Source: Hymenobacter sublimis (lineage in GTDB: Bacteria; Bacteroidota; Bacteroidia; Cytophagales; Hymenobacteraceae). From it: a DNA stretch of 64,000 nt. Of the stretch, positions 4,136 to 64,000 are shown piece after piece. The position numbers were made by a program, and so were the translations under genes. The stretch lies in the NCBI RefSeq assembly GCF_023101345.1, contig NZ_CP095848.1:2485297-2549296 (forward strand). Direction: 5' to 3'. The number at the start of each line of letters is the position of its first letter. Within the stretch, counting starts at the first letter, position 1. The notes under the pieces are model-generated. The model saw only the letters and a list, made by a program, of their open reading frames with translations. It made no database searches and had not been told where the DNA came from.

Positions 4136-4247
4136 GTTGGGTCTTGGGGTCCTGGGGTCTTAGGGTCTTGGATGGCGGTTTTACTTACACTCACTTCTGT
4201 GTAGTGGCACATCATCCAAGACCCTAAGACCCCAGGACCCCAAGACC
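4136..4247. repeat. Long inverted repeat: ~36-bp arms (GGGTCTTGGGGTCCTGGGGTCTTAGGGTCTTGGATG and its reverse complement) around a ~37-bp loop. Probably a bidirectional terminator or MITE-like element.
   Basis: Seen directly in the sequence. The arms also contain an internal GGGTC(T/C)T(G/A)GGG sub-repeat. Confidence 0.6.
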
Positions 4248-4256
4248 CTATTTCTC

Positions 4257-5036: not shown

Positions 5037-5519
5037 ATGTGGTGGATACCATCAACAGAAGACATCCTCGTATCGAAACTCGCGCCTGAGGATGTGCTAC
5101 GCATTGTCGAAGCAAACACAGCCTGCTCTTCTACTTTTATCCCTCAAAAAGAGCTTTTTCGAGGTACAATTCAGGCCAATAGGTTTGCTATCTGGCGGCT
5201 CTCTATGTTCACTAATTGGGCAACGTGGCCGCAAGTTACCGGCTGGATCGAACCGAATCCATATGGTTCTGGCACTGTGTTACTGCTTCGGCAGCGCGCA
5301 AGTCTGATAGCTTTTGGGTTTGGTAGTATTTCTTCCTTTCTGATAGCAATGGGCGTTTCTGCCTTGTTATGGGAGCCAATGCTTGACGGTAAACTTCACT
5401 TACCACAGCTATTACTTCCGTTTCTATTTCCACTCTGCATCATCCTGTTTACACTGCTGCCGTTCCGGCTTGCGGCAGCTGAAAATAGGCGTATTCTCAC
5501 TCGCTTACTTTTTCTGTAG
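5037..5519 (+). CDS. Hypothetical membrane protein
   Basis: Hydrophobic segments in the C-terminal half. Compact spacing after the MBL gene. Confidence 0.4.
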   Translation: MWWIPSTEDILVSKLAPEDVLRIVEANTACSSTFIPQKELFRGTIQANRFAIWRLSMFTNWATWPQVTGWIEPNPYGSGTVLLLRQRASLIAFGFGSISSFLIAMGVSALLWEPMLDGKLHLPQLLLPFLFPLCIILFTLLPFRLAAAENRRILTRLLFL

Positions 5520-5552
5520 CAAGTGGTTGAATCGTAGCTTCCTACCTATTTC

Positions 5553-7136: not shown

Positions 7137-7295
7137 GTATGCAGGCAGATTTTTGGGTAGCAGCTTTTATGTATGCCAGCAACTGAAAGTACCTGACCTA
7201 TTGCTAGGGTAGCGCGGGGTGGCAAGCAGGAAGATCATTTCAAGTCAAGGGTTCTACGGGACCTATCAGTAGTAAAACTCTCGGCTACGATGGCC

Positions 7296-8816: not shown

Positions 8817-9356
8817 ATGCCTTTTCCTTTTTTCGGCGACGATAAATCAACAATTGCGCAGATGCTGAACACCTTACCCCAAGTTGGGCGTCTGGAGTGG
8901 ATTGGACTGCGGCCCGTGCGGCGCGAGCCAATGCTAGCGGTGGCCGAAGCTACGGCCGAAACCGACCGCCATTTGCACGGCGACCATGCCCGCCCCAAGC
9001 CCGGCGGCAAGCGCCAGGTAACCCTGATTCAGCATGAGCACCTAGCGGCGGTAGCGGGCTACCTGAGTCTGCCTGAGCCTGTTGACCCGGGCCGCCTGCG
9101 GCGCAACCTGGCCGTGAGCGGGCTGAACCTGCTGGCCCTGAAAAACCGGCGAATCCGCATCGGAGAAGAGGTAGTGCTGGAAATTACGGGCGAGTGTCAC
9201 CCTTGCTCCCGCATGGAGGAAGAACTGGGTCCGGGCGGCTATAATGCCATGCGCGGCCACGGTGGTCTTACGGCCCGCATTGTGCAGGGAGGCCTCATGC
9301 GCGCCGGCGACTTAGTGCGGATAGAGCCCACACCGCCAGCGGAGCCAGGCAGCTAA
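8817..9356 (+). CDS. MOSC domain-containing protein
   Basis: 'ITGECHPCSRMEE...GGLTARIVQGGLMRAGDLV' matches the MOSC beta-barrel family (YiiM-like). Confidence 0.75.
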   Translation: MPFPFFGDDKSTIAQMLNTLPQVGRLEWIGLRPVRREPMLAVAEATAETDRHLHGDHARPKPGGKRQVTLIQHEHLAAVAGYLSLPEPVDPGRLRRNLAVSGLNLLALKNRRIRIGEEVVLEITGECHPCSRMEEELGPGGYNAMRGHGGLTARIVQGGLMRAGDLVRIEPTPPAEPGS

Positions 9357-11340: not shown

Positions 11341-12744
11341 CTACACCCCGCCTTCCATGCGCACGATGCGCGGGCTAAAGGAGCCCAGCACATCCACCAG
11401 CTCAGTCTGGCTTTGCATCACGGCGTGAATGTCTTTGTAGGCCTGGGGCGCCTCATCGACGCCCCCGCCCAGCAGCTCAATACCGTGCTGTTGGAGGTAG
11501 CGGCGCACTTCGGCCTCGCCCAGCTCCTGCTTGGCCCGGGTGCGCGACATTTGCCGACCCGCGCCGTGGGAAGCCGACGACAAGGACGCCGCCTCGCCCC
11601 GCCCCCGCACGATAAAGCCGGGGGCCGTCATGGAGCCCGGAATGATGCCGAGCACCCCTTTGCCGGCCGGCGTGGCTCCTTTGCGGTGGACCACTACCTC
11701 CCGGCCGTCCATCAGGCGCTCTTTCCAGGCGAAGTTGTGGTGGTTTTCCACTTTGGCCAGGGGCCGCTCGCCGAGGGCTTTGGCCAGGCGCTGGTGAATC
11801 TGGTGGTGACAGGCCGAGGCGTAGTCGCCGGCTAAGTTCATGGCCGCCCAATACTCCTGTCCGGCTTCCGTGTCGAGGCCGAGCCAGGCGAGGTGGCGGG
11901 CTTCGGCGGGTAGCTGGCAGGTATCCTGGGCCAGTTTGGTGTAGTGGTTGGCGATGCTGGCCCCTAGCCCCCGGGAGCCGGAGTGCGAAAGCAACCCCAG
12001 GTACTGACCTACCGGCACGCCCAGCTCATTGGCGGGGTCGGTGATGTCGACCACGCCCCACTCCACGAAGTGGTTGCCGCCCCCGGAGGAGCCGATTTGC
12101 GCGGCGGCCGTGTCGAGCTTGTTGCGCAGAAAGGGAATTTCCTGGAACTCCGGGCGGTCGAGGACGGCGTGCCCCAGCTTCTGGCCGTGGCGGAATACGT
12201 CGCGGTTGCCGAATTTGGTGTGGTCCAGCAGCAGCTTACGCAGCTCCTGTACCCGTTGCTCCAGAAACTTAGGCGGCAAGGCAAACACCGACAGGGCCAT
12301 CCGGCAGCCAATGTCCACACCCACGGCGTAGGGAATTACGGCGTTATCCGTAGCCAGCACCCCGCCAATGGGCAGACCGTAGCCGTGGTGAGCGTCGGGC
12401 ATGAGGGCCCCAGCCACGGTTACGGGCAGCTTCATGGCCGTTTCCATCTGATGGATGGCACCCTGCTCAATGTACTCGGCGCCAAATACAGCGTATTCCT
12501 TGCGCTCCGTAAGGGCAATGTGCCGGCTGGGCGGGGGTAGCAAAGCGGCGGCCGTGTGGCTCCAGTCGAGGTGGGTGAGGTAGGTAGAAGGGTCAGCCAG
12601 CAGGCTTTTGAGCAGGGTTAGCTGGTCGGTTTGGGAAAGTTTTTTGAGGTGCTTGCGCTGCAGTTGAGCCAGCGCGAGTCCAATGGCCCGACCTTCCGGG
12701 AAGCCAAGCTGCCGAAGGTCGTTGCCGCGTAGTTGTGAGGCCAT
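11341..12744 (-). CDS. rtcB: RtcB family RNA 3'-phosphate/5'-OH ligase
   Basis: Hallmarks 'MPDAHHGYGLPIGGV', 'GSRGLG', 'HNFAWKE' and 'SHGAGR'; 467 aa. Confidence 0.9.
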   Translation of the reverse strand: MASQLRGNDLRQLGFPEGRAIGLALAQLQRKHLKKLSQTDQLTLLKSLLADPSTYLTHLDWSHTAAALLPPPSRHIALTERKEYAVFGAEYIEQGAIHQMETAMKLPVTVAGALMPDAHHGYGLPIGGVLATDNAVIPYAVGVDIGCRMALSVFALPPKFLEQRVQELRKLLLDHTKFGNRDVFRHGQKLGHAVLDRPEFQEIPFLRNKLDTAAAQIGSSGGGNHFVEWGVVDITDPANELGVPVGQYLGLLSHSGSRGLGASIANHYTKLAQDTCQLPAEARHLAWLGLDTEAGQEYWAAMNLAGDYASACHHQIHQRLAKALGERPLAKVENHHNFAWKERLMDGREVVVHRKGATPAGKGVLGIIPGSMTAPGFIVRGRGEAASLSSASHGAGRQMSRTRAKQELGEAEVRRYLQQHGIELLGGGVDEAPQAYKDIHAVMQSQTELVDVLGSFSPRIVRMEGGV

Positions 12745-12778
12745 GCGAATAAGAATGTACTAGAAGAAATTTTCGGCT

Positions 12779-12869
12779 GCGGAGCAACGGGCGAGTCGCG
12801 TATCCTGAGGGGTGGGTGTGCACCCGCAGTCAGGCCGAAGTAACGCGACCCTACGGCATCCGAAAGCCA
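12779..12869 (-). ncRNA. Short Y-RNA-like unit (YrlB-like: closing stem only, no tRNA-like module), 35 bp upstream of rtcB
   Basis: The minus strand has the 5' box GGATGCCGTAGGGTCGCG-TTACTTCG and the 3' side CGCGACTC...GTTGCTCC, which pairs with the 5' box. It shares the boxes of the longer units. Confidence 0.4.
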
Positions 12870-12979
12870 GAGAAAAAGAGCGGTTAGAAGGGTAATAAGG
12901 CGGACAGGCCCTTAGGTTTTCAGACGAAGTATGCCTGCTCCACGACACCTTCCGGCCGCTCAAGAGTATTCAAAAAAAT

Positions 12980-13127
12980 CTGTTCGGGGCAACAGGTGGG
13001 CGGCCCCTATATCCTGCTCTACCTTCTGAGCTACAGCCACCACCCAAGGGTAGCAACTGGTGGGACTCGAACCCACGACCCGGGCAACCACAGTGCGAAG
13101 TATGGTCGCCCTACGGCACCCGAACAG
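12980..13127 (-). ncRNA. Y-RNA-like (YrlA-like) unit 1 with tRNA-like module
   Basis: The minus strand reads, in order: 5' box GGGTGCCGTAGGGCGACCATACTTCG; T-arm GTGGG-TTCGAGT-CCCAC; acceptor-like 3' strand; linker; 5' strand with D-arm GCTC-AGAAGGTA-GAGC; hairpin GGGGC...GCCCC; 3' box CTGTTGCCCC. Confidence 0.5.
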
Positions 13128-13149
13128 ATAGTACCAGCGGTGAGGTAAT

Positions 13150-13275
13150 CAGCGAAAAGCGTTCTGTAAACTGGGTGCTTTTGACCACTCAGCCACTTGC
13201 CCGCAGTCGGACAAGACGGGATTCGAACCCGCGGGCTACAGAAGGCCAACCAACGAAGTAGCGCTTTCTTCCGAC
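13150..13275 (-). ncRNA. Y-RNA-like unit 2 (variant closing stem GAAAGCGC/GCGCTTTTC) with tRNA-like module
   Basis: T-arm GCGGG-TTCGAAT-CCCGT; a 7-bp acceptor-like hairpin CTTGTCC-G-ACTGC-GGGCAAG; a class-II-type D-arm GCT-GAGTGGTCAAA-AGC. Confidence 0.45.
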
Positions 13276-13299
13276 ACTCACCTTTTTATTTTCCGTGGG

Positions 13300-13441
13300 G
13301 GTGGGGCTAACAAGCACCAGGCCTTTTATCCTGCTCTACCTGACTGAGCTACAGCGGCCACCGAAGCAGCCACCAGCGGGATTCGAACCCGCGACCTGGG
13401 CGTTAAGAGCGCGAAGTATGGCCTGGCTACGGCACCCACTC
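13300..13441 (-). ncRNA. Y-RNA-like unit 3 with tRNA-like module
   Basis: 5' box GGGTGCCGTAGCCAGGCCATACTTCG; T-arm GCGGG-TTCGAAT-CCCGC; D-arm GCTC-AGTCAGGTA-GAGC; 3' box GCTTGTTAGCCCC. Confidence 0.5.
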
Positions 13442-13462
13442 CCGCGGAAAAAACAAAACCTA

Positions 13463-13610
13463 CCGGGGCAACAAACGAGCAGCGAAATGACCGGCCCGAA
13501 GGCCGTTCTGCTCTACCTAGCTGAGCTACAGTCCAAGAGAAACAACCTGATTGGACTGGCCCGAATCGAACGGGCGACCCGAAGTAACGCTGCCCTACGA
13601 CACCCGGCAG
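13463..13610 (-). ncRNA. Y-RNA-like unit 4 with tRNA-like module
   Basis: 5' box GGGTGTCGTAGGGCAGCGTTACTTCG; T-arm GCCCG-TTCGATT-CGGGC; perfect 7-bp acceptor-like stem CAGTCCA/TGGACTG closed by a 15-nt loop; D-arm GCTC-AGCTAGGTA-GAGC; UUCG-capped hairpin CGGCC-TTCG-GGCCG; 3' box TTTGTTGCCCC. Confidence 0.5.
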
Positions 13611-13636
13611 GGTGATAATGCGGCTGACCCTCTGCG

Positions 13637-13762
13637 TTGGGGCAACAAGCGGCTGGCGAGTACCCCGCAGCCGGAACTGCGGGATGGGAATCGAACCCTA
13701 CACCGGGGATGCCGGTGTATTCAACCAAGACGAAGTAACGCCTGCCTACGGCACCCAAACGG
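13637..13762 (-). ncRNA. Y-RNA-like unit 5 (degenerate tRNA-like module)
   Basis: 5' box GGGTGCCGTAGGCAGGCGTTACTTCG; a T-loop-like GGGTTCGATTCCC with a weak stem; a 7-bp hairpin CCCGCAG-TTCCGG-CTGCGGG; 3' box GCTTGTTGCCCC; no D-arm. Confidence 0.4.
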
Positions 13763-30916: not shown

Positions 30917-33085
30917 ATGTTGGAACAACTCTCCCTGGCGGTGATACTCATCGTTGCCGTCCTCTTATTGGGCTTTCTAGCCATCATTGCCCGCATGTAC
31001 CAGAAGGCGGTGCAGGGCGAAGCCCTCGTCCGGACCGGCATGGGCGAAACCAAGGTTTCCTTTAGCGGCATCTTCATCGTGCCCATCCTGCACAAGATGG
31101 AGGTGATGGACATCAAGCTCAAAACCATTGTTATTGCCCGGGCTGGCTCCGAAGGGCTGGTCTGCAAAGACAATCTGCGGGCCGATGTGAAGGTGAACTT
31201 CTTCGTGCGCGTCAACAAAACCCACGATGACGTGCTGAACGTGGCTCAGAGCATCGGGGCCCACCGCGCCTCCGACCCCGCGGCCCTGGAAAACCTCTTC
31301 GACGCCAAGTTTTCAGAAGCGTTAAAGACGGTAGGCAAGCACTTCGATTTCATCGAGTTGTATAATTCCCGCGAGCAGTTTAAGCAGGAAATCCTGCGCA
31401 TTATCGGCACCGACCTGAACGGCTACGTGCTCGACGACTGCGCCATCGACTACCTGGAGCAAACCCCGCTGACCGCGCTCAACCAAGACAATATTCTGGA
31501 CGCCGAGGGCATCAAGAAAATCATTGCCCTGACCTCGGAGCAGAAGATTCAGGCCAACTCCATCCAGCGGGAGCAGCAGAAAACCATCAAGAAGCAGGAC
31601 GTTGAGGCCCAGGAAACCATCCTGCAGCTGGAAAAGCAGCTGATTGAAAACCAGGAAAAGCAGAAGCGCGAGGTAGCCAATATCAAGGCTCGTGAAGCCG
31701 CGGAGGCCGAAAAAGTACAGCAGGAAGAGCGTCTGAAATCAGAGCGGGCCCGCATTGCCACCGAAGAAGAAGTGCGCGTGGCTGAGCAGAACCGCGACCG
31801 GCAGGTGCTGGTGGCCGAGCGCAACAAGCAGCGCACCGACGCCGTGGAAACCGAGCGCGTCGCGCAGGCCCAAGCCCTGGAGGCCAACGAGCGGGAGCGG
31901 ATTGTGGCCCTGGCCCAGATTGAAAAGGAAAAGGCTCTGGAAGAAGAGAAAAAGAACATCCAAACCATCATTCGGGAGCGAATCACGGTAGAAAAAGCCA
32001 CGGTTCAGGAAGAAGAAAAGATAAAGGACACCCGCGCCCAGGCCCAGGCCGACCGCGAAAAGCTGGTGGCCCTGACCGCCGCCAAGCAGCAGGCCGAAGC
32101 CGCCACGGTGGCTCTGGTAGGCAATGCCGACATGGAAAAACAAGCCGCCGAGTTCCGCGCCAAGCAGGCCCTAATTGACGCCGAAGCCGAGAAAGCCGCC
32201 GCTGAGTTCAAGGGTCAAGCCATTCGTACCCTGGCCGAAGCCGAAGCCAGCAAAGCCACCGCCGTGGGCCTAGCCGAAGCCCAGGTGATGCAAGCCAAAG
32301 CCACCGCCCGCCAGAAAGAAGGCGAAACCGAGGCCACGGTGCTGCAGCTTACCGCCGCCGCCGAAGCCCAGGCCATTCAAGCCAAAGCCGGTGCCCAGGC
32401 CGAAGCCGACGAAAAACTAGGCCTGGTAGCCGCCAAAATCAACCGTGAAAAAGGCCTCGCCGACGCCGACATCATTCAGGCCAAAGCCGACGCCGACCAG
32501 AAGAAGGGCCTGGCCGAAGCCGCCGTATCGGAGCAGAAGTTTGCGGTGGAAGCCAAGGGCATCGAGGCCAAGGCCGACGCCATGAAAAAGCTCGATGGCG
32601 TGGGCAAAGACCACGAGGAGTTCAAACTGCGCCTCGACAAGGAAAAGTCGGTGGAGCTGGCCCAGATTAGCATTCAGAAGGACATTGCCGCCTCCCAGGC
32701 CGATGTTATCGGCGAGGCCCTCAAGGCCGCCAAAATCGACATTGTGGGCGGGGAAACGATGTTCTTCGACCAGATTATTGGCTCTATCACGAAGGGTAAG
32801 ATGGTGGACCGCGCCGTGCACAACTCCGAAGTGCTGGGCACCGTGAAAGACGCCTTCTTCTCCCTGGACGGGGGCGGCGACTTCAAAACCAACCTGCGTC
32901 GCTTTGTGGATCAGTTCGGCCTGAGCAGTGAAGACATGAAGAACCTCAGCGTCTCGGCCCTACTGCTAAAGATGATGAACCAAGCCGGCGACGACGCCAC
33001 GCGTGCCACCATCACCCAGCTGGCCAGCACCGCGCAGGTGATGGGCATCGGCGACAAGCCGGCCAAGATGCTAGAGCTGAAGTAA
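30917..33085 (+). CDS. Flotillin-like SPFH/band-7 protein with very long Ala/Glu/Lys coiled-coil repeats (YqiK/FloT-like)
   Basis: N-terminal TM and SPFH core 'VRTGMGETKVSFSGIFIVPILHKMEVMDIKLKTIVI...DNLRADVKVNFFVRV', then ~350 aa of 'EAEKAAAEFKGQA'-type repeats. Confidence 0.85.
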   Translation: MLEQLSLAVILIVAVLLLGFLAIIARMYQKAVQGEALVRTGMGETKVSFSGIFIVPILHKMEVMDIKLKTIVIARAGSEGLVCKDNLRADVKVNFFVRVNKTHDDVLNVAQSIGAHRASDPAALENLFDAKFSEALKTVGKHFDFIELYNSREQFKQEILRIIGTDLNGYVLDDCAIDYLEQTPLTALNQDNILDAEGIKKIIALTSEQKIQANSIQREQQKTIKKQDVEAQETILQLEKQLIENQEKQKREVANIKAREAAEAEKVQQEERLKSERARIATEEEVRVAEQNRDRQVLVAERNKQRTDAVETERVAQAQALEANERERIVALAQIEKEKALEEEKKNIQTIIRERITVEKATVQEEEKIKDTRAQAQADREKLVALTAAKQQAEAATVALVGNADMEKQAAEFRAKQALIDAEAEKAAAEFKGQAIRTLAEAEASKATAVGLAEAQVMQAKATARQKEGETEATVLQLTAAAEAQAIQAKAGAQAEADEKLGLVAAKINREKGLADADIIQAKADADQKKGLAEAAVSEQKFAVEAKGIEAKADAMKKLDGVGKDHEEFKLRLDKEKSVELAQISIQKDIAASQADVIGEALKAAKIDIVGGETMFFDQIIGSITKGKMVDRAVHNSEVLGTVKDAFFSLDGGGDFKTNLRRFVDQFGLSSEDMKNLSVSALLLKMMNQAGDDATRATITQLASTAQVMGIGDKPAKMLELK

Positions 33086-55896: not shown

Positions 55897-55945
55897 CAGT
55901 AACGGAAAGAACGTCATGCTTCGCTGCGCTCGGCATGACGTTCTT
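55897..55945. terminator. Hairpin AAAGAACGTCATGC...GCATGACGTTCTTT with T-run, downstream of the nuclease gene
   Basis: Seen directly in the sequence. Confidence 0.5.
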
Positions 55946-56135
55946 TTTGCCTAAACATTCTTACTATCTATACAGCCTAGGTGCATAGCAATCAGCAGGC
56001 TTCTGCCAACTTATTTAGAAAGCTGTATTATTAATGCGCAGCTTGAAATACTTATTTTTTTAGTATTCCCATTTGTTTACCTAAAATATTCTCCATCTTG
56101 GGAGCTCTTCATTCTATTATAGTTAGCGAGCTTCT

Positions 56136-56801
56136 ATGCGCTTGAGCCTATACCTCACAGCCGGTAAACCATTGCCTTTTGACCACTTGCCTACGCTTAA
56201 GGGCGCGTTTCACCGGTGGCTAGGTCATAATGACGAACTGCACAATGGCCTCTCCCTTTATTCCCTGTCGTGGCTGCGCGGTGGCCAAGCCGGGCGCAAC
56301 GGCTTACAGTATCGAAACGGTGCCCATTGGTCTATTTCCGCCCACGACCCGCAGCTGATTCATCAACTTGTCGGCGGTGTCATCCGGGAGCCGGACTTGG
56401 GCCTGGGCCTCACCGTCCGCGACGCGCGCCTCATTACGCCACCCCAGTTCCAAGATGGCGAGCAGTGGTTGCGGGTGCTGAGTCCCGTGTTTGTAAAGTG
56501 GGAGGTTGAAGCCGGCAAACCCGCTGACCACCTCACGTACGAAGACCCGCGCGCCGACGAGTTGCTCACGGCCACCCTGCGCCACAAGCTCCGTCAAGCC
56601 GGCCTCGACGACACCGGTGCCGCCGTCCGCTTCGACCGGCACTATGCTGGGGCTAAAACCAAGCTTTTCCGTTATAAGGCCGTGCAGTGCCGCGCCAGTC
56701 AGTGCCCCGTCATCGTAACCGGCACCGCTGAGCAAATCCGCTTTGCCTGGTGCGTGGGCGTAGGCCATAGCACGGGGCTGGGGTGCGGGGCGCTGGAATA
56801 G
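56136..56801 (+). CDS. cas6: Cas6-like CRISPR RNA endoribonuclease
   Basis: C-terminal glycine-rich loop 'GVGHSTGLGCG' (GxGxxxxxGxG), an N-terminal RAMP-like fold pattern, and a position at the head of the cas operon. Confidence 0.55.
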   Translation: MRLSLYLTAGKPLPFDHLPTLKGAFHRWLGHNDELHNGLSLYSLSWLRGGQAGRNGLQYRNGAHWSISAHDPQLIHQLVGGVIREPDLGLGLTVRDARLITPPQFQDGEQWLRVLSPVFVKWEVEAGKPADHLTYEDPRADELLTATLRHKLRQAGLDDTGAAVRFDRHYAGAKTKLFRYKAVQCRASQCPVIVTGTAEQIRFAWCVGVGHSTGLGCGALE

Positions 56802-56829
56802 ATTTTACACGATTTATTGATTTTGTGAT

Positions 56830-57396
56830 ATGCTTTACGCGGTAAAGTACACTGGCCCTTTTGGCTACCTCAAGCCTTGGACGGCGGTAAGAGATGGAGA
56901 GACCTATTCCCAACAGTTTCTCACCCCTTCTGTAATTGAAGGAATGCGCCAGAAGTTAGGGGTGGCGCAGATTCTACGGCACCGGCTGAGCTATGATACC
57001 TTGAGCCAACAGCAAGAGGTAGTTCATGCGCGGGCTTTCAAAGAAGAAAAGCGTACGGGTCGGATTCTGGGGCGTGACCGGGGGATCCTACTACGTAATG
57101 TGCTGCTAAATCCGGTGCTGCACCTGGCTTTCTCGACGCGAGAAGATGCTGAACGAGCAGCGCGACAACACTTGTGCCTTTGTCGTAACGAGGACCTTGT
57201 ACTGCCCACGGGGCCAATACAAGAGCTTTCCCAGGAAGGGTTTGAGGCCCTGGACGGATTCGAGCTGCACTTTACTGAAGACGGCACCAGTGAAGGAAGC
57301 TTTCTAGTTGGCTTCAACCGCTTCACTGGCAACGCGCCAATGTACGGGCAGCTTTCCATCACGGGCCGCGCGGTTCGTTATCTGCCGCAGTCATGA
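56830..57396 (+). CDS. cas5: Cas5-family protein (short, 188 aa)
   Basis: N-terminal Cas5 signature 'YTGPFGYLKPWTAVRDGETYSQQFLTPSVIEGMRQKLG'. Confidence 0.55.
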   Translation: MLYAVKYTGPFGYLKPWTAVRDGETYSQQFLTPSVIEGMRQKLGVAQILRHRLSYDTLSQQQEVVHARAFKEEKRTGRILGRDRGILLRNVLLNPVLHLAFSTREDAERAARQHLCLCRNEDLVLPTGPIQELSQEGFEALDGFELHFTEDGTSEGSFLVGFNRFTGNAPMYGQLSITGRAVRYLPQS

Positions 57397-59552
57397 GTGC
57401 ATCTGTTACTGCGCTGCGGGCTAAAAGTCCCGAAAATGGCGGTTTGCTGCTCGCCGACCATCTGCTTCACGTAGCCGAAGCCGCCGAAGCCATTGCACAT
57501 GGCCGAAATCTTAATCCGGAACTGGCTCGGCTTGGGGGCTTGCTACATGACATTGGCAAAGCTCATCCTGAGTTTCAGCGCCGCCTAACTGCTAAGCGTA
57601 CCCCGGCCGACAAACCTTTTCGGCACGAGTTGGCGTCGTTATTCTTCCTGCCCCTATTGCCTCAGATACAATGGGAGCCGCTATTTGACATGTTGGTAGC
57701 GCACCATAAATCATTGGCTCGCGACTCATCAGGCTATGGCTTGTATGATTTCGACCAGATGGGCGAGAACTTTGAGAAAACGCATCTGGACGCGCCAGCC
57801 CAGCGGTGGGAAGAATGGTCGGGGCCGGCGTTGGCGGTCCTGACGGAAGTAGGAATAGCCACAAAACCCATCAGCCGAGCAGAAGCCTTAACAGCATTTG
57901 AATGGTGTACGGAGCGCGCCTACGCGCTGATTGAAGGCCGGGTACTGGGCTGGTCGCCGTGGAAAGGACTACTGGTGGCAGCTGACCATCTGGCCTCAGC
58001 CCTGCAGCAGCGCACCACACTGGCTCTGCCACGCTTATTCCGCTCGCCCGATTTGGCGCCCTTTGCTGGGACGCATCCGCTTTATCCCTTATCAACCAAG
58101 CAAACTACCGACGAGGGCAAGCCACACACGCTGGTAACGGCGCCTACCGGCGCAGGCAAGACAAACTACCTGCTGCGCCGTTGCCGGGGACGGGTGTTTT
58201 ATACGTTGCCGTTTCAGGCTTCTATCAATGCCATGTGGCGCCGCATTGGGGAAGCGTTGCAGGAGCAGGAAGTAGATGTGCGGCTACTACACGGCTCGTC
58301 GCGGGTAGTAGCATACCAAGCTAAAGAGGAAGAAAAAGCCCTGCAGGACAAAGTAGGGGCAGCTGTGAAGGTGCTTACGCCGCACCAGCTGATGGGCATC
58401 GTGTTTGCCACGCGAGGCTATGAGAGTTTACTGCTTGACTTGCAAGGCGCTGATGTTATCCTGGACGAGATTCACACTTACGGCGCCCTTACCCAAGCCA
58501 TTCTGTTCCGGTTGGTGGAGGCGCTACACGGTATCGGCTGCCGGGTCCACGTAGGCACGGCTACCATGCCCACAGCTCTTTACGACCAGGTACTAGCGCT
58601 GCTTGGTGGGCCGGAGGCCACGCGCATCACCACCCTTACCGAAGAAGAGCTGGACACCTATGACCGCCACACTGTGCACAAGCTACCCGATTGGGACGCA
58701 ACTCGCGCCGTGCTGGCGGAGCAGTTGCAGGCCGGCGCTAAGGTGCTAATTGTGCGTAACCGGGTAAAGGACGCCCAACAGCTTTACCACGACTTGCAGG
58801 AGCTATACCCGGACACGCCCAAGATGCTGCTCCACAGTCGGTATCGTCGGATGGACCGGGCCGAGCTTGAAAATCAATTAAAAAAGGAGTTTGACGAGCA
58901 GCCGGGCCCTTGTATCGTGGTAGCCACGCAGGTAGTGGAAGTAAGCCTGGATATCAGCTTTGATTGCATGCTGACCGATACGGCCCCTGTTGATGCCTTG
59001 GTCCAGCGTTTCGGGCGCGTAAACCGCCGTCGGCTGGAGCCGGCGCAACGTAAGCTGCAACCTGTGTACGTAGTGGCCCCACCCACGACCAAAACGGCTG
59101 CCCGACCCTATGACGTGGACGTACTGCAACGCACCTACGACCTGCTACCCGACCAAGGCATTGTATTGCGCGAGCGGGACTTGGCCGGCTTGATTGATGC
59201 CGTGTACCCCACAGTAGAACTGACCTCGCTGGACGGCTTCGCCCGCTTTCGTAATGGCCAGTTTTTGTTGCCGCTGCTCACCCACGAACCGAAGTCGGTG
59301 CTGCTGGATTTGCTGGAAATTGATTCAGTTACGGGCGTGTGGCTGCGAGACTACGAAGCTTATTCACAGGCCTCGCCCGACGAGCGGCCCCGCTTTGAAA
59401 TTCCGCTGAACTACCGGGATGCTCAACGAGCCAAACTGCGCCAGCACCCGCACGGCAACAATCCCTATCTGATTGATGAGCAAGCCTACTCACCCGAAAC
59501 AGGCCTGCACATGGAGCGGCTGCTAGCCGAAACCGGCTATGAATTCCTTTAA
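57393..59552 (+). CDS. cas3: Cas3 (fused HD nuclease + DEAD/DEAH-box helicase)
   Basis: HD domain 'HLLHVAE...LLHDIGKAHPEF...VAHHK'; helicase motifs 'TAPTGAGKT', 'LDEIHTY' and C-terminal 'VATQVVEVSLD'. Confidence 0.9.
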   Translation: MSASVTALRAKSPENGGLLLADHLLHVAEAAEAIAHGRNLNPELARLGGLLHDIGKAHPEFQRRLTAKRTPADKPFRHELASLFFLPLLPQIQWEPLFDMLVAHHKSLARDSSGYGLYDFDQMGENFEKTHLDAPAQRWEEWSGPALAVLTEVGIATKPISRAEALTAFEWCTERAYALIEGRVLGWSPWKGLLVAADHLASALQQRTTLALPRLFRSPDLAPFAGTHPLYPLSTKQTTDEGKPHTLVTAPTGAGKTNYLLRRCRGRVFYTLPFQASINAMWRRIGEALQEQEVDVRLLHGSSRVVAYQAKEEEKALQDKVGAAVKVLTPHQLMGIVFATRGYESLLLDLQGADVILDEIHTYGALTQAILFRLVEALHGIGCRVHVGTATMPTALYDQVLALLGGPEATRITTLTEEELDTYDRHTVHKLPDWDATRAVLAEQLQAGAKVLIVRNRVKDAQQLYHDLQELYPDTPKMLLHSRYRRMDRAELENQLKKEFDEQPGPCIVVATQVVEVSLDISFDCMLTDTAPVDALVQRFGRVNRRRLEPAQRKLQPVYVVAPPTTKTAARPYDVDVLQRTYDLLPDQGIVLRERDLAGLIDAVYPTVELTSLDGFARFRNGQFLLPLLTHEPKSVLLDLLEIDSVTGVWLRDYEAYSQASPDERPRFEIPLNYRDAQRAKLRQHPHGNNPYLIDEQAYSPETGLHMERLLAETGYEFL

Positions 59553-59564
59553 TCCACTTCGCCG

Positions 59565-60905
59565 ATGATTACTGCCGTTATCGGCCGCCAGTTTCTGGCC
59601 GCCTACAATGCCGCCCACGGACTCAGCCTAAGTGTGGCTGAATATTTCGAGGAACGGTTTATCCCGCTGTTTTTCGACCACCCAAAGTATATCATGCATG
59701 GCGGTAATTCCCGGCTCAGTAATCCACCCTTCAAAAAAGGCCAATATCCTGATGCTACCGACCGCAACAAACGCATTGGTGAGTTGCTGAAATTTATTCG
59801 GGAAGACCCGGCAGGCTCAAGCCCGGTAGGTTTTCCGAGTACTGACGTGCTGGCTACTACATCGGGGCAAGTAAGTGGAGCCACCATGCCTATTTCGGCT
59901 GATGAGGTAATGCTTTCGTGGGTGGGAGGCGCATTAGGCGTGGGTGTACAGGGCGCTTTGTCGCTGCTGATACCCGTGCCGGAAGTGCTGCTGGCTTTGG
60001 AGCAAGGCTGGCACGTATATCGTCGCTTGCTCACGGACCGCCACGAACTGCGTCCTAACCAAGTGAACACTTGGAATGGCCAGTGGCTACGCAGTTATAA
60101 TGCAAGCTTAGGAGCCCAGAATGGAGAACTGTTGCCTGCTGATGCTTTTTCGGTTGACAAAGGCATCATGAGCGCCGAAACTGCGCCCTGGACGGATGTG
60201 CTGCTGTCCTTGGTGAAACTGCTGCCGCCCACGGCTCGCACCCAAACCGTGTACGTGTACAACCTTGGCCAAACCAACACGACCGTGGGCTTCGTGCCCG
60301 TGGATTTGATGGGCATTCGTAAGCCGTTCGACTTATACCGGAAGTTATTTGGGGAGGGTGAATACACCAGCAACCGCAGCTTTATTCAGAATCTGTTTGG
60401 GTCGGGCTTCGGCTTCCGCAAAGCCTGTCAAGCCGGCGCCATCGGTACCTACGCTCTGCTGCCGAAGGGCCTGCGCGGCTTGATGCCCGCCACCAAGCCC
60501 GGCGAAAAAACCAAACTTCCCGATTACAGCAAAAACGACAATTCGCTCTTAGTTACTTACCACGTTTACATTTCCTGGTTACTCGCCATGCTCAATGATG
60601 AAACCCTTTGGTCGCGCGCGGAAGAAGCTGCCGACCTGCTGGTGCTGCACAGAAGTGCCGGCAAAAAACTCAGCCGCGGCAATGCTAATGCGGTAGATGA
60701 CGTGTTGCAGGCGGGCAACCGCCGCAATTTCATTGCTGCCCTCACTACGGTGGTAGAAAATGCCCCAACCGACACGCTCGACAAGTTCAAGAGTCTGGCG
60801 CAGCGTGTGGATACCATGCCGCCCGACAACTTTCCCTATTTCCTGACGCTGGTGCGGTTCTGCTACGCGCTGGCTGACCGTCAACAGGCGGCTACTCCCG
60901 CGTAA
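59565..60905 (+). CDS. Candidate Cascade large subunit (Cas8-like; its 446-aa size is closer to Cas8u2 than to Cas8b/Cas8c)
   Basis: Position between cas3 and cas7; no motif I can recognise by eye. Confidence 0.4.
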   Translation: MITAVIGRQFLAAYNAAHGLSLSVAEYFEERFIPLFFDHPKYIMHGGNSRLSNPPFKKGQYPDATDRNKRIGELLKFIREDPAGSSPVGFPSTDVLATTSGQVSGATMPISADEVMLSWVGGALGVGVQGALSLLIPVPEVLLALEQGWHVYRRLLTDRHELRPNQVNTWNGQWLRSYNASLGAQNGELLPADAFSVDKGIMSAETAPWTDVLLSLVKLLPPTARTQTVYVYNLGQTNTTVGFVPVDLMGIRKPFDLYRKLFGEGEYTSNRSFIQNLFGSGFGFRKACQAGAIGTYALLPKGLRGLMPATKPGEKTKLPDYSKNDNSLLVTYHVYISWLLAMLNDETLWSRAEEAADLLVLHRSAGKKLSRGNANAVDDVLQAGNRRNFIAALTTVVENAPTDTLDKFKSLAQRVDTMPPDNFPYFLTLVRFCYALADRQQAATPA

Positions 60906-60940
60906 TCAACTCTTGGTCTTTAGTCTTTACTTTTTTCTAT

Positions 60941-62008
60941 ATGAATTCTTTTCTCTACCTCCGGGGCCTCAAGTCTGCTTCGCACACTGTGTTTGGCGTC
61001 AGCCAGGGACAGAAATATTACTACGACCCGCAATTTTCTACCCGAATGCCTTATTCCAGCGGCCAACAGGTGAAACGCTCGGTGCTGGAAGTATTTTTAG
61101 CGGAATTAGGCCTGTCGCCCGCACCCGTTACGTTCGTGTCCAACCTCGATAAGAACGGCAAGCTTGGCGAAGGTGAACCGTGGTCGGCATGCGACCCGCG
61201 GCACCCTGACCAACTCGTTGGCGGCTGGATGCGAGCCCAAAAAGGTGGTGACAACCGCACGTTGAAAAGGCGTAGCCCACTTTCTATCTCGGCCATGCGC
61301 CCCCTGCATCCTTTGCTAGCCGGCATGAGCAGCGAGAACATCACGTTTGACCGCAGCGACCGGCCTACTCTACACAAGGTCATTGTGCGGGACGCCGATA
61401 ATAAGGAGTTAAGCGAGGAAGAACTAGCTGCTTTGTTAAAAGGTACCGACCGGAGCGTGTTGCGGAAGTGGATTCCTGAAAATACCCGCGCCAGTGGCCT
61501 ATTCGTGTATGATGTAGCCGTGGACATGCGCACCCTGTTTTGCGTGTCGACCAACGACACGGAGCCGGAAGTGACGCCCGCCATTCGCGAAGCCCTGCAA
61601 GCTACTGGGTGGCAACCGGGCGTGAATTCCTTCGGACCGTGCCTAGTGTGCCCGCCGGAGCAGCGCGAGAAGCTAATTCCCGCTCTGGCTAAAGCCCTGC
61701 TCGACTGGCGCATTCTCACCAACCAAAGTCGCACGTTTGATTTGATGAAGACGTTGGCCGTTGCCGTTTCCGACAACGCCAACGCCATCGGGGCCGCCAT
61801 CCGGGCGAAGCTGGTACCCGAATCAGAAGGCAGCGAGCGGCCGAAAGCTCGCCCTGTGCTCGAACAAGTAAATGGCGTGGACTTGTTTATTACGCCTAGC
61901 GCCGCCGAATACGTCTTTACGGAAGAAGAACGCGCCGATGCGCTATCTGACGCCGAGCAAGAAATAGCACGCCGGCTGCGGGCATTCAGCTACGAGCAGC
62001 AAGTATAA
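60941..62008 (+). CDS. cas7: Candidate Cas7 backbone subunit
   Basis: 'PYSSGQQVKRSVLEVF' resembles the Cas7 'PGSSxKG' loop; operon position. Confidence 0.5.
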   Translation: MNSFLYLRGLKSASHTVFGVSQGQKYYYDPQFSTRMPYSSGQQVKRSVLEVFLAELGLSPAPVTFVSNLDKNGKLGEGEPWSACDPRHPDQLVGGWMRAQKGGDNRTLKRRSPLSISAMRPLHPLLAGMSSENITFDRSDRPTLHKVIVRDADNKELSEEELAALLKGTDRSVLRKWIPENTRASGLFVYDVAVDMRTLFCVSTNDTEPEVTPAIREALQATGWQPGVNSFGPCLVCPPEQREKLIPALAKALLDWRILTNQSRTFDLMKTLAVAVSDNANAIGAAIRAKLVPESEGSERPKARPVLEQVNGVDLFITPSAAEYVFTEEERADALSDAEQEIARRLRAFSYEQQV

Positions 62009-62038
62009 ACCCCATCAGCTATCCTGGCTCTGCTTCGC

Positions 62039-62575
62039 GTGGAGCCAGGATTCTTTTTTGCTTCTATGCGCACCATCACCGCCACCCACGTCAAGTACTA
62101 CCACGTCTGCCACCGCAAACTGTGGCTGTTCGACCGTGATTTGTGGATGGAGCATACCTCCGAGGCCGTAGCGGGCGGCGAGCTATTACACCAGACAGCT
62201 TACCCACAGCGGGCTGAGCGGTATAAGGAAGTCAGTATTGGCGGCAGCAAGATTGATTTCTATGATCCGCATCGGCGTGTTATTCACGAAATCAAAACAT
62301 CGCAGAAGCTAGAAGAATCACACATTGCTCAACTCAAGTACTATCTCTGGCTGCTGGAGGAAGCCGGCGTGGAAGGCCCTACGGCCCTATTGGAATACCC
62401 GAAGCTTCGTCAAACGCTGGCCGTTGCTCTCACCCCTGCTGACCGGGCAGATATTCCGCAATGGCTAACTCGTATTCAGCAGCTGCAATCCGATAACACG
62501 CCTTGTCCGCCTACTATCAATAAGCCTTTCTGCCGACAGTGTAGTTACTACGAGTTTTGCTATGTGGGCGAGTGA
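62039..62575 (+). CDS. cas4: Cas4 (RecB-like nuclease with Fe-S cysteine cluster)
   Basis: N-terminal Cys in 'YYHVCHRKLW'; C-terminal 'CPPTINKPFCRQCSYYEFC' four-Cys cluster; 'DPHRRVIHEIKTSQK' nuclease core. Confidence 0.8.
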   Translation: MEPGFFFASMRTITATHVKYYHVCHRKLWLFDRDLWMEHTSEAVAGGELLHQTAYPQRAERYKEVSIGGSKIDFYDPHRRVIHEIKTSQKLEESHIAQLKYYLWLLEEAGVEGPTALLEYPKLRQTLAVALTPADRADIPQWLTRIQQLQSDNTPCPPTINKPFCRQCSYYEFCYVGE

Positions 62576-62659
62576 GTGGTACAATAGGGCTAGGTGTCTG
62601 GTTTTATGTGAAATGAGATTTGTGCCGCCTTTCTAAAAGGAATCAGCTTAATTAATGAT

Positions 62660-63667
62660 ATGAGGAAGACATACTATCTGTTCAATCCTGGCCGGTTGAG
62701 CCGGAAGGACAATACTTTACAATACACCGCTTACGATGAGCAAGGCTTACCCGGACAAGTGAAGTATTTGCCCATAATGGATGTGGCAGATCTCTACGTG
62801 TTCGGTTCACTCGATGCTAACTCCAGCCTCTACAACTTCCTAGGTAAGAACGGCGTCTCAGTGCACTTTTTCGACTACTACGAGCACTATACCGGTTCGT
62901 TCATGGCCAAGGAGTACCTGCTGGCAGGCAAGCTTCAGGTGCAGCAAACTCAACATTACACGTCTAAAACCAAGCGCATTGCTCTCGCCCGCAAGTTTGT
63001 GGAGGGTTCCGCGTTCAATCTACTCAAGAACCTACGTTATTACCAGAGCCGCGGCCGGGACGTAGCCGCTCACATCGATCAGATAGAGGGCTACGTGGCT
63101 GCCCTACCGTTCGCCAATGCCGTACCTGAGCTCATGGGGCTGGAAGGCAACATTCGTCAGACCTACTACAGCGGCTTCGACCGGCTGGTACCTACCGATT
63201 ACGCTTTCGGCACGCGTACCACTCAACCGCCTCAAAACGAACTTAACGCACTTATGTCGTTTGGCAACATGCTCTGCTACTCGGCCTGTCTTTCGCAGAT
63301 CTATCATACGCAGCTCAACCCTACCATTAGCTTTTTGCACGAGCCTGGTACTCGCCGGTTCTCGCTGGCCTTAGATCTTGCTGAGATTTTCAAGCCCCTG
63401 CTAGTAGATCGTCTGATTTTCCGGGTACTCAACAAGCGAGAAATTCGCCCCAATGATTTTGTGCAGGACCTAGGCCGCTGCGTACTGAAAGAACCCGCGA
63501 AGAAAACTGTGGTACGCGTTTTTGAAGAGCGCCTGAAGGAAACAATTCAACACCGTAGCCTCAAGCGTAGCGTCAGTTACCAGCACTTAATCAAGCTTGA
63601 GTGCTACAAGCTCACTAAGCACTTAATGCAGATGGAAGAATACAAACCCTTTAAAGCGTGGTGGTAA
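62660..63667 (+). CDS. cas1: Cas1 integrase
   Basis: 'YYLFNPGRLSRKDNTLQY' N-terminus; 'SFGNMLCYSACLSQIY' and 'HEPGTRRFSLALDLAEIFKP' core; 335 aa. Confidence 0.9.
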   Translation: MRKTYYLFNPGRLSRKDNTLQYTAYDEQGLPGQVKYLPIMDVADLYVFGSLDANSSLYNFLGKNGVSVHFFDYYEHYTGSFMAKEYLLAGKLQVQQTQHYTSKTKRIALARKFVEGSAFNLLKNLRYYQSRGRDVAAHIDQIEGYVAALPFANAVPELMGLEGNIRQTYYSGFDRLVPTDYAFGTRTTQPPQNELNALMSFGNMLCYSACLSQIYHTQLNPTISFLHEPGTRRFSLALDLAEIFKPLLVDRLIFRVLNKREIRPNDFVQDLGRCVLKEPAKKTVVRVFEERLKETIQHRSLKRSVSYQHLIKLECYKLTKHLMQMEEYKPFKAWW

Positions 63668-63668
63668 G

Positions 63669-63932
63669 ATGTATGTATTGCTGGTATATGATATCCGCGA
63701 GAAGCGCGTGGGCAAAATGCTCAAACTCTGTCGTCGCTACCTAAATTGGATTCAAAACTCGGTTTTCGAGGGCGAAATAACCGAAGTAAAACTTAAGGAG
63801 TTACTGGCCAAAGCCCATAACTTCCTAGATACTGACGAAGACAGCGTATTAATTTTCAAAAGTCGTAGTCAGCAGTGGCTGGAAAAGCAGGTAGTGGGCC
63901 AGGAAAAGAACAAGTTGGACACGTTTTTATAA
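63669..63932 (+). CDS. cas2: Cas2
   Basis: 'MYVLLVYDIREKRVGKMLKLCRRYLNWIQNSVFEGEIT'; 87 aa. Confidence 0.85.
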   Translation: MYVLLVYDIREKRVGKMLKLCRRYLNWIQNSVFEGEITEVKLKELLAKAHNFLDTDEDSVLIFKSRSQQWLEKQVVGQEKNKLDTFL

Positions 63933-64000
63933 GTGAAATAGGTCGTCGGTGCACTGGTTGATCGTATTATTTGAGCATTAATCACACAGTACAAAGTATA

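What the first reader, a model, noticed from the sequence alone, without database searches (positions are those of the whole stretch)
56136..63932. Type I CRISPR-Cas gene set with non-canonical order (cas6-cas5-cas3-large subunit-cas7-cas4-cas1-cas2) and no array inside the window
The Cas3 (HD+helicase), Cas4, Cas1 and Cas2 identifications are strong. Cas6 (G-rich loop) and Cas5 (N-terminal signature) are reasonable. The order differs from I-B (cas6-cas8b-cas7-cas5-cas3-...) and from I-C (cas3-cas5-cas8c-cas7-..., which has no cas6). The cas3-large-cas7 core with a small (446-aa) large subunit resembles I-G/I-U, but in that subtype cas5/cas6 and cas4/cas1 are fused and located differently. This may therefore be a variant subtype or a rearranged I-G-like system. 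No CRISPR repeats occur in the window. An AT-rich leader-like sequence begins right after cas2 at 63933, so the array is probably just beyond the window edge.
Basis: partly seen in the sequence, partly recalled or inferred. Interest (0 to 1): 0.6.

Follow-up and report, generated by a model that had tools for sequence, protein, structure and literature searches.

The report
Ordinary Bacteroidota-type I-B CRISPR-Cas operon
This is a complete, intact-looking type I-B CRISPR-Cas immune gene cluster of the variant common in Bacteroidota; its unusual gene order is normal for that lineage, so it is ordinary.

Summary
The eight + strand genes are present as described, and no CRISPR array lies in the window. 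PADLOC anti-phage defence profiles match all eight proteins full-length to subtype I-B models: Cas6b 2e-82, Cas5b 1e-79, Cas3b 3e-268, Cas8b 3e-121, Cas7b 3e-160, Cas4b 3e-63, Cas1b 5e-163, Cas2b 3e-43. Cas1 also passes NCBI's I-B-specific model. No I-G effector profile hits, and the I-G and I-C specific NCBIfam models score far below their cut-offs.

The window is Hymenobacter sublimis (the Cas8 and Cas5 proteins are 100% identical to its records). Relatives of the large subunit occur in 343 species genomes, nearly all Bacteroidota. In the 80 loci fetched, the order cas6-cas5-cas3-cas8-cas7-cas4-cas1-cas2 is complete in 49. The other 31 show only in-order subsets, and none shows a different order.

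A 2017 paper on Bacteroides fragilis "Type IB" describes what appears to be this variant: non-canonical order, with cas5, cas7 and cas8b6 left as "hypothetical".

In 45 relatives an array of 29-30 nt repeats ending in (G/A)GAATTGAAA(C/T) (two exceptions) starts a median 216 bp after cas2. The window ends 68 bp after cas2, so an array just beyond the edge is likely but unverified.

Verdict: the gene calls are right; the "rearranged I-G-like or new subtype" reading is not supported.

The parts
55946..56135 (+). AT-rich intergenic region upstream of cas6. It is the presumed promoter region of the cas operon. It follows the terminator-like hairpin of the upstream gene at about 55906-55948.
   Evidence: Sequence read. 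One sigma-70-like match lies at 56003-56031, which is weak evidence. The promoter role is inferred and was not tested.
56136..56801 (+). cas6 (221 aa), the crRNA-processing endoribonuclease.
   Evidence: PADLOC Cas6b PDLC02101 at 2.3e-82, full length. Pfam Cas_Cas6_C at 8e-08, above its cut-off. NCBIfam TIGR01877 at 1e-13, 52 bits, just below its cut-off of 58.65.
56830..57396 (+). cas5 (188 aa), the Cascade subunit expected to cap the crRNA 5' handle.
57393..59552 (+). cas3 (719 aa), a fused HD nuclease and SF2 helicase. It overlaps cas5 by 4 nt.
   Evidence: PADLOC Cas3b PDLC02079 at 3.5e-268. NCBIfam cas3_core at 204 bits and cas3_HD at 70 bits, both above their cut-offs. Motifs HD (52), GAGKT (253), DEIH (358) and QRFGR (538) are present.
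59565..60905 (+). cas8b (446 aa), the large subunit, with a Cas11-like C-terminal helical bundle at about residues 326-443.
60941..62008 (+). cas7 (355 aa), the Cascade backbone subunit.
   Evidence: PADLOC Cas7b 'CAS-I-B effector_G7' PDLC01493 at 3.4e-160, full length. NCBIfam gives weak hits to the Cas7/DevR families at E about 0.002-0.003.
62021..62060 (+). Terminator-like element between the effector and adaptation modules: a hairpin with a 13-bp stem followed by a T-run.
   Evidence: A hairpin with a T-run of different sequence sits at the same position in L081 and L083. A crude scan found one in only 13 of 50 related loci. Its function is inferred.
62066..62575 (+). cas4 (169 aa from the ATG at 62066; the ORF list gives GTG 62039 and 178 aa). 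It is a RecB-like nuclease with a Cys cluster.
   Evidence: Pfam Cas_Cas4 at 4.5e-46. NCBIfam cas4 at 79 bits against a cut-off of 65. PADLOC Cas4b at 2.9e-63. Cysteines lie at positions 15, 147, 156, 159 and 165.
62660..63667 (+). cas1 (335 aa), the spacer integrase.
   Evidence: NCBIfam TIGR03641, the type I-B Cas1b model, at 5e-132 and 440 bits against a cut-off of 304. PADLOC Cas1b at 5e-163.
63669..63932 (+). cas2 (87 aa).
   Evidence: Pfam CRISPR_Cas2 at 2.5e-22. PADLOC Cas2b at 2.7e-43, covering residues 1-87 of 87.
63933..64000 (+). First 68 bp of the presumed CRISPR leader. The array itself would lie outside the window.
   Evidence: In 45 relatives the array begins a median 216 bp after cas2. 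The octamer TCGTCGGT just after the cas2 stop is shared with the leaders of L081 and L083. The assignment is by analogy and was not verified.

Best explanation
This is a complete, apparently functional type I-B CRISPR-Cas operon of the variant lineage that is widespread in Bacteroidota. That lineage carries the large-subunit family that a 2017 B. fragilis paper cites as 'cas8b6' in Makarova 2015. The order cas6-cas5-cas3-cas8b-cas7-cas4-cas1-cas2 is the normal, fixed order for the lineage.

The mechanism below is inferred from the established type I pathway and was not tested here.
1. An array downstream of cas2, beyond the window, is transcribed from the leader.
2. Cas6 cuts each 29-30 nt repeat and leaves an 8-nt 5' handle, AUUGAAA(C/U).
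3. Cas5 caps the handle, several Cas7 copies coat the spacer, and Cas8b reads the PAM.
4. The Cas11-like C-terminal bundle of Cas8b stabilises the R-loop. It may also be made as a separate small subunit from the conserved internal Met342.
5. The HD-helicase Cas3 is then recruited to nick and shred the target DNA.
6. Cas4-Cas1-Cas2 select and integrate new spacers at the leader-proximal repeat.
7. A terminator-like hairpin between cas7 and cas4 probably keeps adaptation-gene expression below effector expression.
For: All eight proteins give full-length, very strong matches to I-B-labelled profiles. Cas1 passes the I-B-specific NCBIfam model, and Cas3 core and HD, Cas4 and Cas2 pass their curated cut-offs. 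The Cas3 catalytic motifs and the Cas4 Cys cluster are intact, and there are no frameshifts.

The Cas8 and Cas5 proteins are 100% identical to Hymenobacter sublimis proteins. Relatives of Cas8 occur in 343 GTDB species genomes. In the 80 fetched loci the same order on one strand is complete in 49, the other 31 show only in-order subsets, and none has a different order.

Forty-five loci have an array a median 216 bp after cas2. Repeats are 29-30 nt in 44 of the 45, and 42 of the 45 end in (G/A)GAATTGAAA(C/T). The closest intact relatives carry 104 and 87 repeats, starting 200 and 203 bp after cas2.

PMC5704556 describes B. fragilis 'Type IB' with an order different from the canonical C. kluyveri locus, and with cas5, cas7 and cas8b6 annotated as hypothetical. 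Its published leader is homologous to the leaders in two Bacteroides loci of this set.
Against: The array was not seen, because the window ends 68 bp after cas2 and the genome beyond could not be fetched. The closest named relative, H. antarcticus, has lost most of cas4, all of cas1 and cas2, and the array. Loss of the array is therefore possible in this genus.

The link to the B. fragilis system rests on three things: leader homology (73% over 95 nt), matching gene lengths, and the taxa the paper lists. No direct protein comparison was made, and no B. fragilis protein appeared in the top 120 hits.

Confidence: 0.9

Rival explanations
1. This is a rearranged I-G-like (I-U) system or a new type I subtype. 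On this reading the cas3, small large-subunit and cas7 core derives from I-G, with cas5/cas6 and cas4/cas1 unfused.
For: The cas3-cas8-cas7 adjacency and the small (446 aa) large subunit superficially resemble I-G. Cas3 gives a secondary hit to the Cas3g model at 155 bits. The Cas8 whole fold has no Foldseek match in PDB.
Against: The best profiles for all eight proteins are I-B ones, at 3e-43 to 3e-268. The Cas3b model scores 889 bits against 140 bits for Cas3g. NCBIfam Cas3g scores 155 against a cut-off of 400, and Cas4g/Cas1g scores 176 against 560. No I-G Cas5, Cas6, Cas7 or Cas8 profile hits. cas5 and cas6 are separate genes, as are cas4 and cas1. Cas1 passes the I-B-specific model. The order is not a local rearrangement, because it is fixed in 80 loci.
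Confidence: 0.03
2. This is an orphaned or decaying cas operon. The genes are intact, but the cognate array has been lost or lies elsewhere, so the locus does not confer immunity in this strain.
For: No array is in the window. H. antarcticus, whose Cas8 is 89% identical, has a truncated cas4 and no cas1, cas2 or array. B. fragilis strains often carry truncated versions. The window tail shares only an 8-nt motif with the leaders of relatives.
Against: All eight ORFs are intact with catalytic motifs. In every related locus where cas2 and enough downstream DNA are present, an array was found. In 41 of the 45 it starts within about 265 bp of cas2. The window simply ends before that distance.
Confidence: 0.1
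3. The Bacteroidota lineage is distinct enough to merit its own subtype rather than being a I-B variant. The grounds would be its fixed alternative operon architecture and Cas5, Cas7 and Cas8 proteins too divergent for curated Pfam or NCBIfam models to detect.
For: Pfam and NCBIfam miss Cas5 and Cas8 entirely and barely detect Cas7. PDB has no sequence relative. Foldseek finds no fold match for Cas8. The gene order is invariant and differs from model I-B loci.
Against: The current classification already files it under I-B, shown by the profile labels and by Makarova 2015 as cited in PMC5704556. The adaptation module and the repeat type are typical I-B. Gene order is not a subtype-defining criterion, which rests on my own knowledge of the classification scheme.
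Confidence: 0.07

Closest known systems
Bacteroidota variant of type I-B CRISPR-Cas, such as Bacteroides fragilis 'Type IB' with cas8b6 (Tajkarimi & Wexler 2017, PMC5704556, citing Makarova 2015)
   Same: The eight-gene content is the same. The paper states that the order differs from the canonical I-B locus. cas5, cas7 and cas8 are invisible to standard annotation. Gene lengths match: cas5 is 564 bp in the paper, and cas1 is 1014 bp there against 1008 bp here. The repeat is 29 nt with a spacer of about 37 nt. A leader of about 200 bp lies between cas2 and the array. The paper's leader matches the leaders of loci L017 and L075 in this family.
   Different: The host is Hymenobacter, a high-GC aerobic member of Cytophagia rather than Bacteroidales. 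Proteins are only about 36-42% (Cas8) to 55-60% (Cas7, Cas1) identical to those of the Bacteroidales members. The array was not observed here. No direct protein comparison with B. fragilis was made.
Canonical type I-B (Clostridium kluyveri, Haloferax or Synechocystis type: cas6-cas8b-cas7-cas5-cas3-cas4-cas1-cas2)
   Same: The gene complement is the same. There is no separate cas11. Cas3 is a fused HD-helicase. Cas1 passes the I-B model TIGR03641. Repeats in relatives end in ATTGAAA(C/T), the usual 8-nt handle of I-B. That this handle is typical of I-B rests on my own knowledge.
   Different: cas5 and cas3 sit between cas6 and cas8 rather than after cas7. The Cas8, Cas5 and Cas7 sequences are too divergent for the curated Tneap/Hmari-type models. 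No solved structure is detectable by sequence.
Type I-G (formerly I-U)
   Same: cas3, the large subunit and cas7 are adjacent in that order, and the large subunit is small.
   Different: I-G has a Cas5-Cas6 fusion and a Cas4-Cas1 fusion, whereas here all four are separate genes. The I-G-specific models score far below their cut-offs. No I-G effector profile hits.
Type I-C
   Different: I-C lacks Cas6, but a Cas6 is present here. The Cas1c model scores 163 bits against a cut-off of 385.

Membership tests
Type I CRISPR-Cas | Cas3 with an SF2 helicase domain and an HD nuclease domain | tested here: met
   NCBIfam cas3_core scores 204 bits against a cut-off of 102, and cas3_HD scores 70.5 against 43. 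Motifs HD, GAGKT, DEIH and QRFGR are present.
Type I-B | Cas8b-family large subunit, the subtype signature | tested here: met
   PADLOC Cas8b 'CAS-I-B effector_LS' PDLC01511 at 2.6e-121, residues 1-437 against 1-417 of 419 profile positions. The model shows a Cas11-like C-terminal bundle and weak Cas8a, Cas8b and Cas10d similarity. Caveat: no curated Pfam or NCBIfam model hits.
Type I-B | Separate Cas7, Cas5 and Cas6 subunits, and no stand-alone cas11 gene | tested here: met
   Cas7b at 3.4e-160, Cas5b at 1.1e-79 and Cas6b at 2.3e-82. Intergenic gaps are at most 84 nt, so there is no room for a cas11 ORF.
Type I-B | An adaptation module cas4-cas1-cas2 with an I-B-type Cas1 | tested here: met
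   TIGR03641 (Cas1b) scores 440 bits against a cut-off of 304. cas4 scores 79 against 65, and cas2 scores 45.6 against 24.5.
Type I-B | An adjacent CRISPR array with repeats of about 30 nt that yield an 8-nt AUUGAAA(C/G/U) 5' handle | not testable with these tools
   The window ends 68 bp after cas2, and the H. sublimis DNA beyond it could not be retrieved. The feature is met in 45 related loci. The handle itself is inferred from the repeat 3' end.
Type I-B | The textbook operon order cas6-cas8b-cas7-cas5-cas3-cas4-cas1-cas2. This is typical of I-B but is not a classification criterion. | tested here: not met
   The order here is cas6-cas5-cas3-cas8-cas7-cas4-cas1-cas2. The same order holds in all 80 related loci, and the difference was noted for B. 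fragilis Type IB.
Type I-G | I-G-type Cas3 (Cas3g) and a Cas4-Cas1 fusion | tested here: not met
   TIGR02621 (Cas3g) scores 155 bits against a cut-off of 400. NF049935 (Cas4g/Cas1g) scores 176 bits with Cas1 and 30 bits with Cas4, against a cut-off of 560. cas4 and cas1 are separate ORFs 84 nt apart.
Type I-G | A Cas5-Cas6 fusion and I-G Cas7/Cas8 (Csx17-type) effector proteins | tested here: not met
   cas6 and cas5 are separate ORFs. PADLOC returns only I-B, generic, type III-A, type IV and I-D labelled profiles for proteins 1, 2, 4 and 5, and no I-G ones.
Type I-C | No Cas6, with Cas5c doing the processing, plus Cas8c and Cas1c | tested here: not met
   A Cas6 is present. TIGR03640 (Cas1c) scores 163 bits against a cut-off of 385. 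No Cas8c or Cas5c profile hit was found.

The most novel reading that the evidence does not exclude
The Bacteroidota 'cas8b6-type' lineage, which includes this locus, might be a mechanistically distinct Cascade that current classification merely lumps into I-B. Three observations leave this open. Its operon architecture is fixed and different. The N-terminal two-thirds of its large subunit has no close solved structural counterpart. Its small subunit may be made by internal initiation at the conserved Met342 of cas8. None of these has been tested biochemically or structurally.
Probability: 0.1. Interest if true: 0.4.

Novelty: already known. Interest (0 to 1): 0.12.

Why it matters
The scientific importance is small. 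The locus adds a Hymenobacter example to a common, already-profiled I-B variant.

There is a practical point for annotation. NCBI names the Cas5 and Cas8 of this variant 'hypothetical protein', and curated Pfam and NCBIfam models barely detect its Cas7. Such loci therefore look incomplete or odd unless CRISPR-specific profile sets are used.

The lineage is abundant in gut Bacteroidales such as Segatella copri, Bacteroides and Porphyromonas. The PDB holds no sequence-detectable relative of its Cas7 or Cas8. A structure and a PAM determination would be useful for endogenous-system genome editing in those bacteria.

Tried and rejected
**Retrieving DNA beyond the window end.** Exact-protein look-ups of Cas8 and Cas2 found nothing on record. 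The genome-contig scan did not contain H. sublimis. An exact-match scan of metagenome contigs with the window tail found nothing. The array therefore remains unobserved.

**Curated libraries.** Pfam and NCBIfam give nothing for Cas5 and Cas8, and only E about 0.002 for Cas7. Only the PADLOC CRISPR-specific profiles identify them.

**PDB sequence searches.** The Cas8 profile and Cas7 gave no meaningful hits.

**Third protein search.** I used a Bacteroides Cas8 (L017) hoping to find a named B. fragilis homologue. None appeared in the top 120. The link to the published B. fragilis system stays indirect.

**Literature.** Searches for Hymenobacter with type I-B, and for Bacteroidetes I-B gene order, found nothing. 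The Makarova 2015 paper is not held.

**Rfam.** A scan of the whole window gave no hits.

**Readings rejected.** I rejected the I-G and I-C readings (see the membership tests). I also rejected the idea that the order is a local rearrangement, because it is lineage-wide.
Full report
**Observation**

They are packed with gaps of -4 to 84 nt, which leaves no room for another gene.

The window contains no CRISPR array. Tandem Repeats Finder found none. A search for interspaced direct repeats found only a coding repeat at 32273-32582. The conserved repeat end of this family, GGAATTGAAAY, occurs no more often than chance.

Only 68 bp follow the cas2 stop codon.

**Gene identities**

NCBIfam and Pfam confirm Cas3 (core helicase 204 bits, HD 70 bits), Cas4, Cas1 and Cas2 above their curated cut-offs. 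They identify Cas6 above the Pfam cut-off but just below the NCBIfam one. They give nothing for the 188-aa and 446-aa proteins, and only E about 0.002-0.003 (Cas7/DevR families) for the 355-aa protein.

PADLOC's CRISPR-specific profiles match all eight over their full length, and every best hit carries an I-B label:

| Protein | Best PADLOC profile | E-value |
|---|---|---|
| 221 aa | Cas6b | 2.3e-82 |
| 188 aa | Cas5b | 1.1e-79 |
| 719 aa | Cas3b | 3.5e-268 |
| 446 aa | Cas8b 'CAS-I-B effector_LS' | 2.6e-121 |
| 355 aa | Cas7b 'CAS-I-B effector_G7' | 3.4e-160 |
| 178 aa | Cas4b | 2.9e-63 |
| 335 aa | Cas1b | 5.3e-163 |
| 87 aa | Cas2b | 2.7e-43 |

Cas1 also passes NCBI's I-B-specific model TIGR03641, at 440 bits against a cut-off of 304. 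The models specific to other subtypes fail:
- Cas3g scores 155 bits against 400.
- Cas4g/Cas1g scores 176 against 560.
- Cas1c scores 163 against 385.

No I-G effector profile matches any of the four effector proteins. The Cas3 motifs HD, GAGKT, DEIH and QRFGR and the Cas4 cysteine cluster are intact.

**Structure predictions**

This is the expected architecture of a I-B or I-C type large subunit with a fused Cas11-like domain. Foldseek against PDB found nothing. The protein is therefore a divergent Cas8, not a close copy of a solved one.

**Source organism and distribution**

The Cas8 and Cas5 proteins are 100% identical to Hymenobacter sublimis proteins that NCBI names 'hypothetical protein'. 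A scan of one genome per GTDB species with a Cas8 alignment found relatives in 343 species. The best 80 loci are almost all Bacteroidota: Hymenobacter antarcticus, Segatella copri, Bacteroides salyersiae and B. ilei, Porphyromonas endodontalis, Chitinophaga, Prolixibacteraceae and many Bacteroidales MAGs. A later search counted at least 2,535 protein clusters with E at or below 1e-50.

**Gene order**

I ran tblastn with the eight window proteins against the 80 loci. It gave cas6-cas5-cas3-cas8-cas7-cas4-cas1-cas2, all on one strand, in 49 loci. The remaining 31 show only subsets in the same order. Some of these are cut by contig ends and others lack the adaptation module. No locus has a different order.

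The 'non-canonical' order is therefore the invariant order of this lineage, not a rearrangement in this genome.

**Arrays in relatives**

Forty-five loci carry an array downstream of cas2. The gap has a median of 216 bp, and 38 of the 45 fall between 205 and 238 bp. Repeats are 29-30 nt in 44 loci and 26 nt in one. In 42 of the 45 they end in (G/A)GAATTGAAA(C/T). The median array has 41 repeats.

The closest intact relative is L081, a metagenome contig whose Cas8 is 90% identical. It has 104 repeats of CCTTCAATCGGACCAGGTGGAATTGAAAT starting 200 bp after cas2. H. psoromatis (L083) has 87 repeats starting 203 bp after cas2.

The window tail shares only the octamer TCGTCGGT with those two leaders. 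The H. sublimis DNA beyond the window was not retrievable.

One caution applies. H. antarcticus, with Cas8 89% identical, has a truncated cas4 and no cas1, cas2 or array.

**Literature**

Tajkarimi & Wexler 2017 (PMC5704556) describe the B. fragilis 'Type IB' system. [quoted passage not shown] Three genes that all annotation servers call hypothetical are classified as cas5, cas7 and cas8b6 by Makarova et al. 2015. The paper also reports a 29-nt repeat, a spacer of about 37 nt, a 564-bp cas5, a 1014-bp cas1 and a 193-bp leader between cas2 and the array. It says the closest Cas3 relatives are in Prevotella, Porphyromonas, Chitinophaga and Spirosoma.

All of this fits the family studied here. 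The published leader aligns to the leader regions of two Bacteroides loci in my set: L017 at 73% over 95 nt, and L075. I did not obtain a direct protein comparison with B. fragilis. The identification with 'cas8b6' is therefore very likely but indirect.

**Mechanism**

The following is inferred from the established type I pathway.
1. Cas6 processes the repeats and leaves an 8-nt AUUGAAA(C/U) handle.
2. Cas5, a Cas7 multimer and Cas8b assemble on the crRNA.
3. Cas8b reads the PAM, and its Cas11-like C-terminal domain stabilises the R-loop.
4. Cas3 degrades the target DNA.
5. Cas4-Cas1-Cas2 acquire new spacers.

Two further points are inferences from this work. First, Met342 of Cas8 is conserved in 87 of 92 homologues and sits near the start of the Cas11-like bundle. 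It could be an internal start that produces a separate small subunit of about 105 aa, as reported for other I-B, I-C and I-D systems. That report rests on my own knowledge and was not checked here.

Second, a hairpin with a 13-bp stem and a T-run lies at 62021-62060, between cas7 and cas4. It recurs with a different sequence in L081 and L083. It probably attenuates transcription into the adaptation genes. A crude scan found such an element in only 13 of 50 related loci.

**Verdict**

The gene calls and the 'no array in the window' statement are right. The 'variant subtype or rearranged I-G-like system' interpretation is not supported. This is an ordinary member of a known, widespread and already-profiled Bacteroidota I-B variant, so interest is low.

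The residual novelty is limited. This lineage's Cascade has no sequence-detectable solved structure. In addition, general-purpose annotation still misses its Cas5 and Cas8.

Noticed in passing
window 62021-62066: A terminator-like hairpin with a 13-bp stem and a T-run lies between cas7 and cas4. It overlaps the GTG (62039) taken as the cas4 start, so the true start is more likely the ATG at 62066 (169 aa, as in the L081 and L083 gene calls). A hairpin with a T-run of different sequence lies at the same place in L081 (about 9129-9160) and L083 (about 12533-12577).
   Followed up: partly
window 56136-63932 compared with L081 and L083: Identity is modular. Against L081, cas5, cas3, cas8 and cas7 are 85-90% identical, but cas6 is 67% and cas4, cas1 and cas2 are 74-79%. 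Against L083 the effector genes are 46-63%, yet cas6 (68%) and cas4, cas1 and cas2 (72-79%) are as close as to L081. This suggests that cas6 and the adaptation module have a different history from the effector core. GC also falls from 0.55-0.62 in cas6-cas7 to 0.51 in cas1 and 0.43 in cas2, against 0.59 for the rest of the window.
   Followed up: partly
L001 (Hymenobacter antarcticus) 12592-13700: This is the closest named relative. It keeps cas6 through cas7, but cas4 is truncated after about residue 74, and cas1, cas2 and any array are absent from the 8.5 kb downstream. The locus appears to be decaying.
   Followed up: partly
L023 12459-13249; L046 12402-13050; L061 12402-13185: In these related loci the CRISPR array starts directly after cas7, and no cas4, cas1 or cas2 was detected. 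They look like effector-only versions of the system.
   Followed up: no
L011 12672-15869; L044 12524-15611, and about 24 other related loci: About a third of the related loci that have both genes carry a 0.7-4 kb insertion between cas7 and cas4. In L011 and L044 the inserted same-strand ORFs include DUF6155 (PF19652, 8e-25 and 9e-28), a 458-470 aa protein with no significant Pfam match, and in L011 a PRiA4_ORF3-like protein (PF07929, 1e-56). These may be recurrent accessory genes. None is present in the window.
   Followed up: partly
L083 (H. psoromatis) 5223-7159: Several minus-strand genes sit between cas6 and cas5 in this locus, including a DDE_3 transposase gene and an HTH protein gene. 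This looks like an IS insertion splitting the operon.
   Followed up: no
window 4139-4248: There is a long, nearly perfect inverted repeat whose arms are tandem octamers. (GGGTCTTG)x4 lies at 4139-4171 and its complement (CCAAGACC)x4 at 4216-4248, separated by about 44 nt, in an intergenic region. It may be a large terminator or a REP-like element.
   Followed up: no
window 32273-32582: Four imperfect 37-nt direct repeats (68-100% identical, spacing 87-99 nt) lie inside the 722-aa ORF at 30917-33085. They are a protein-coding repeat, not a CRISPR.
   Followed up: no
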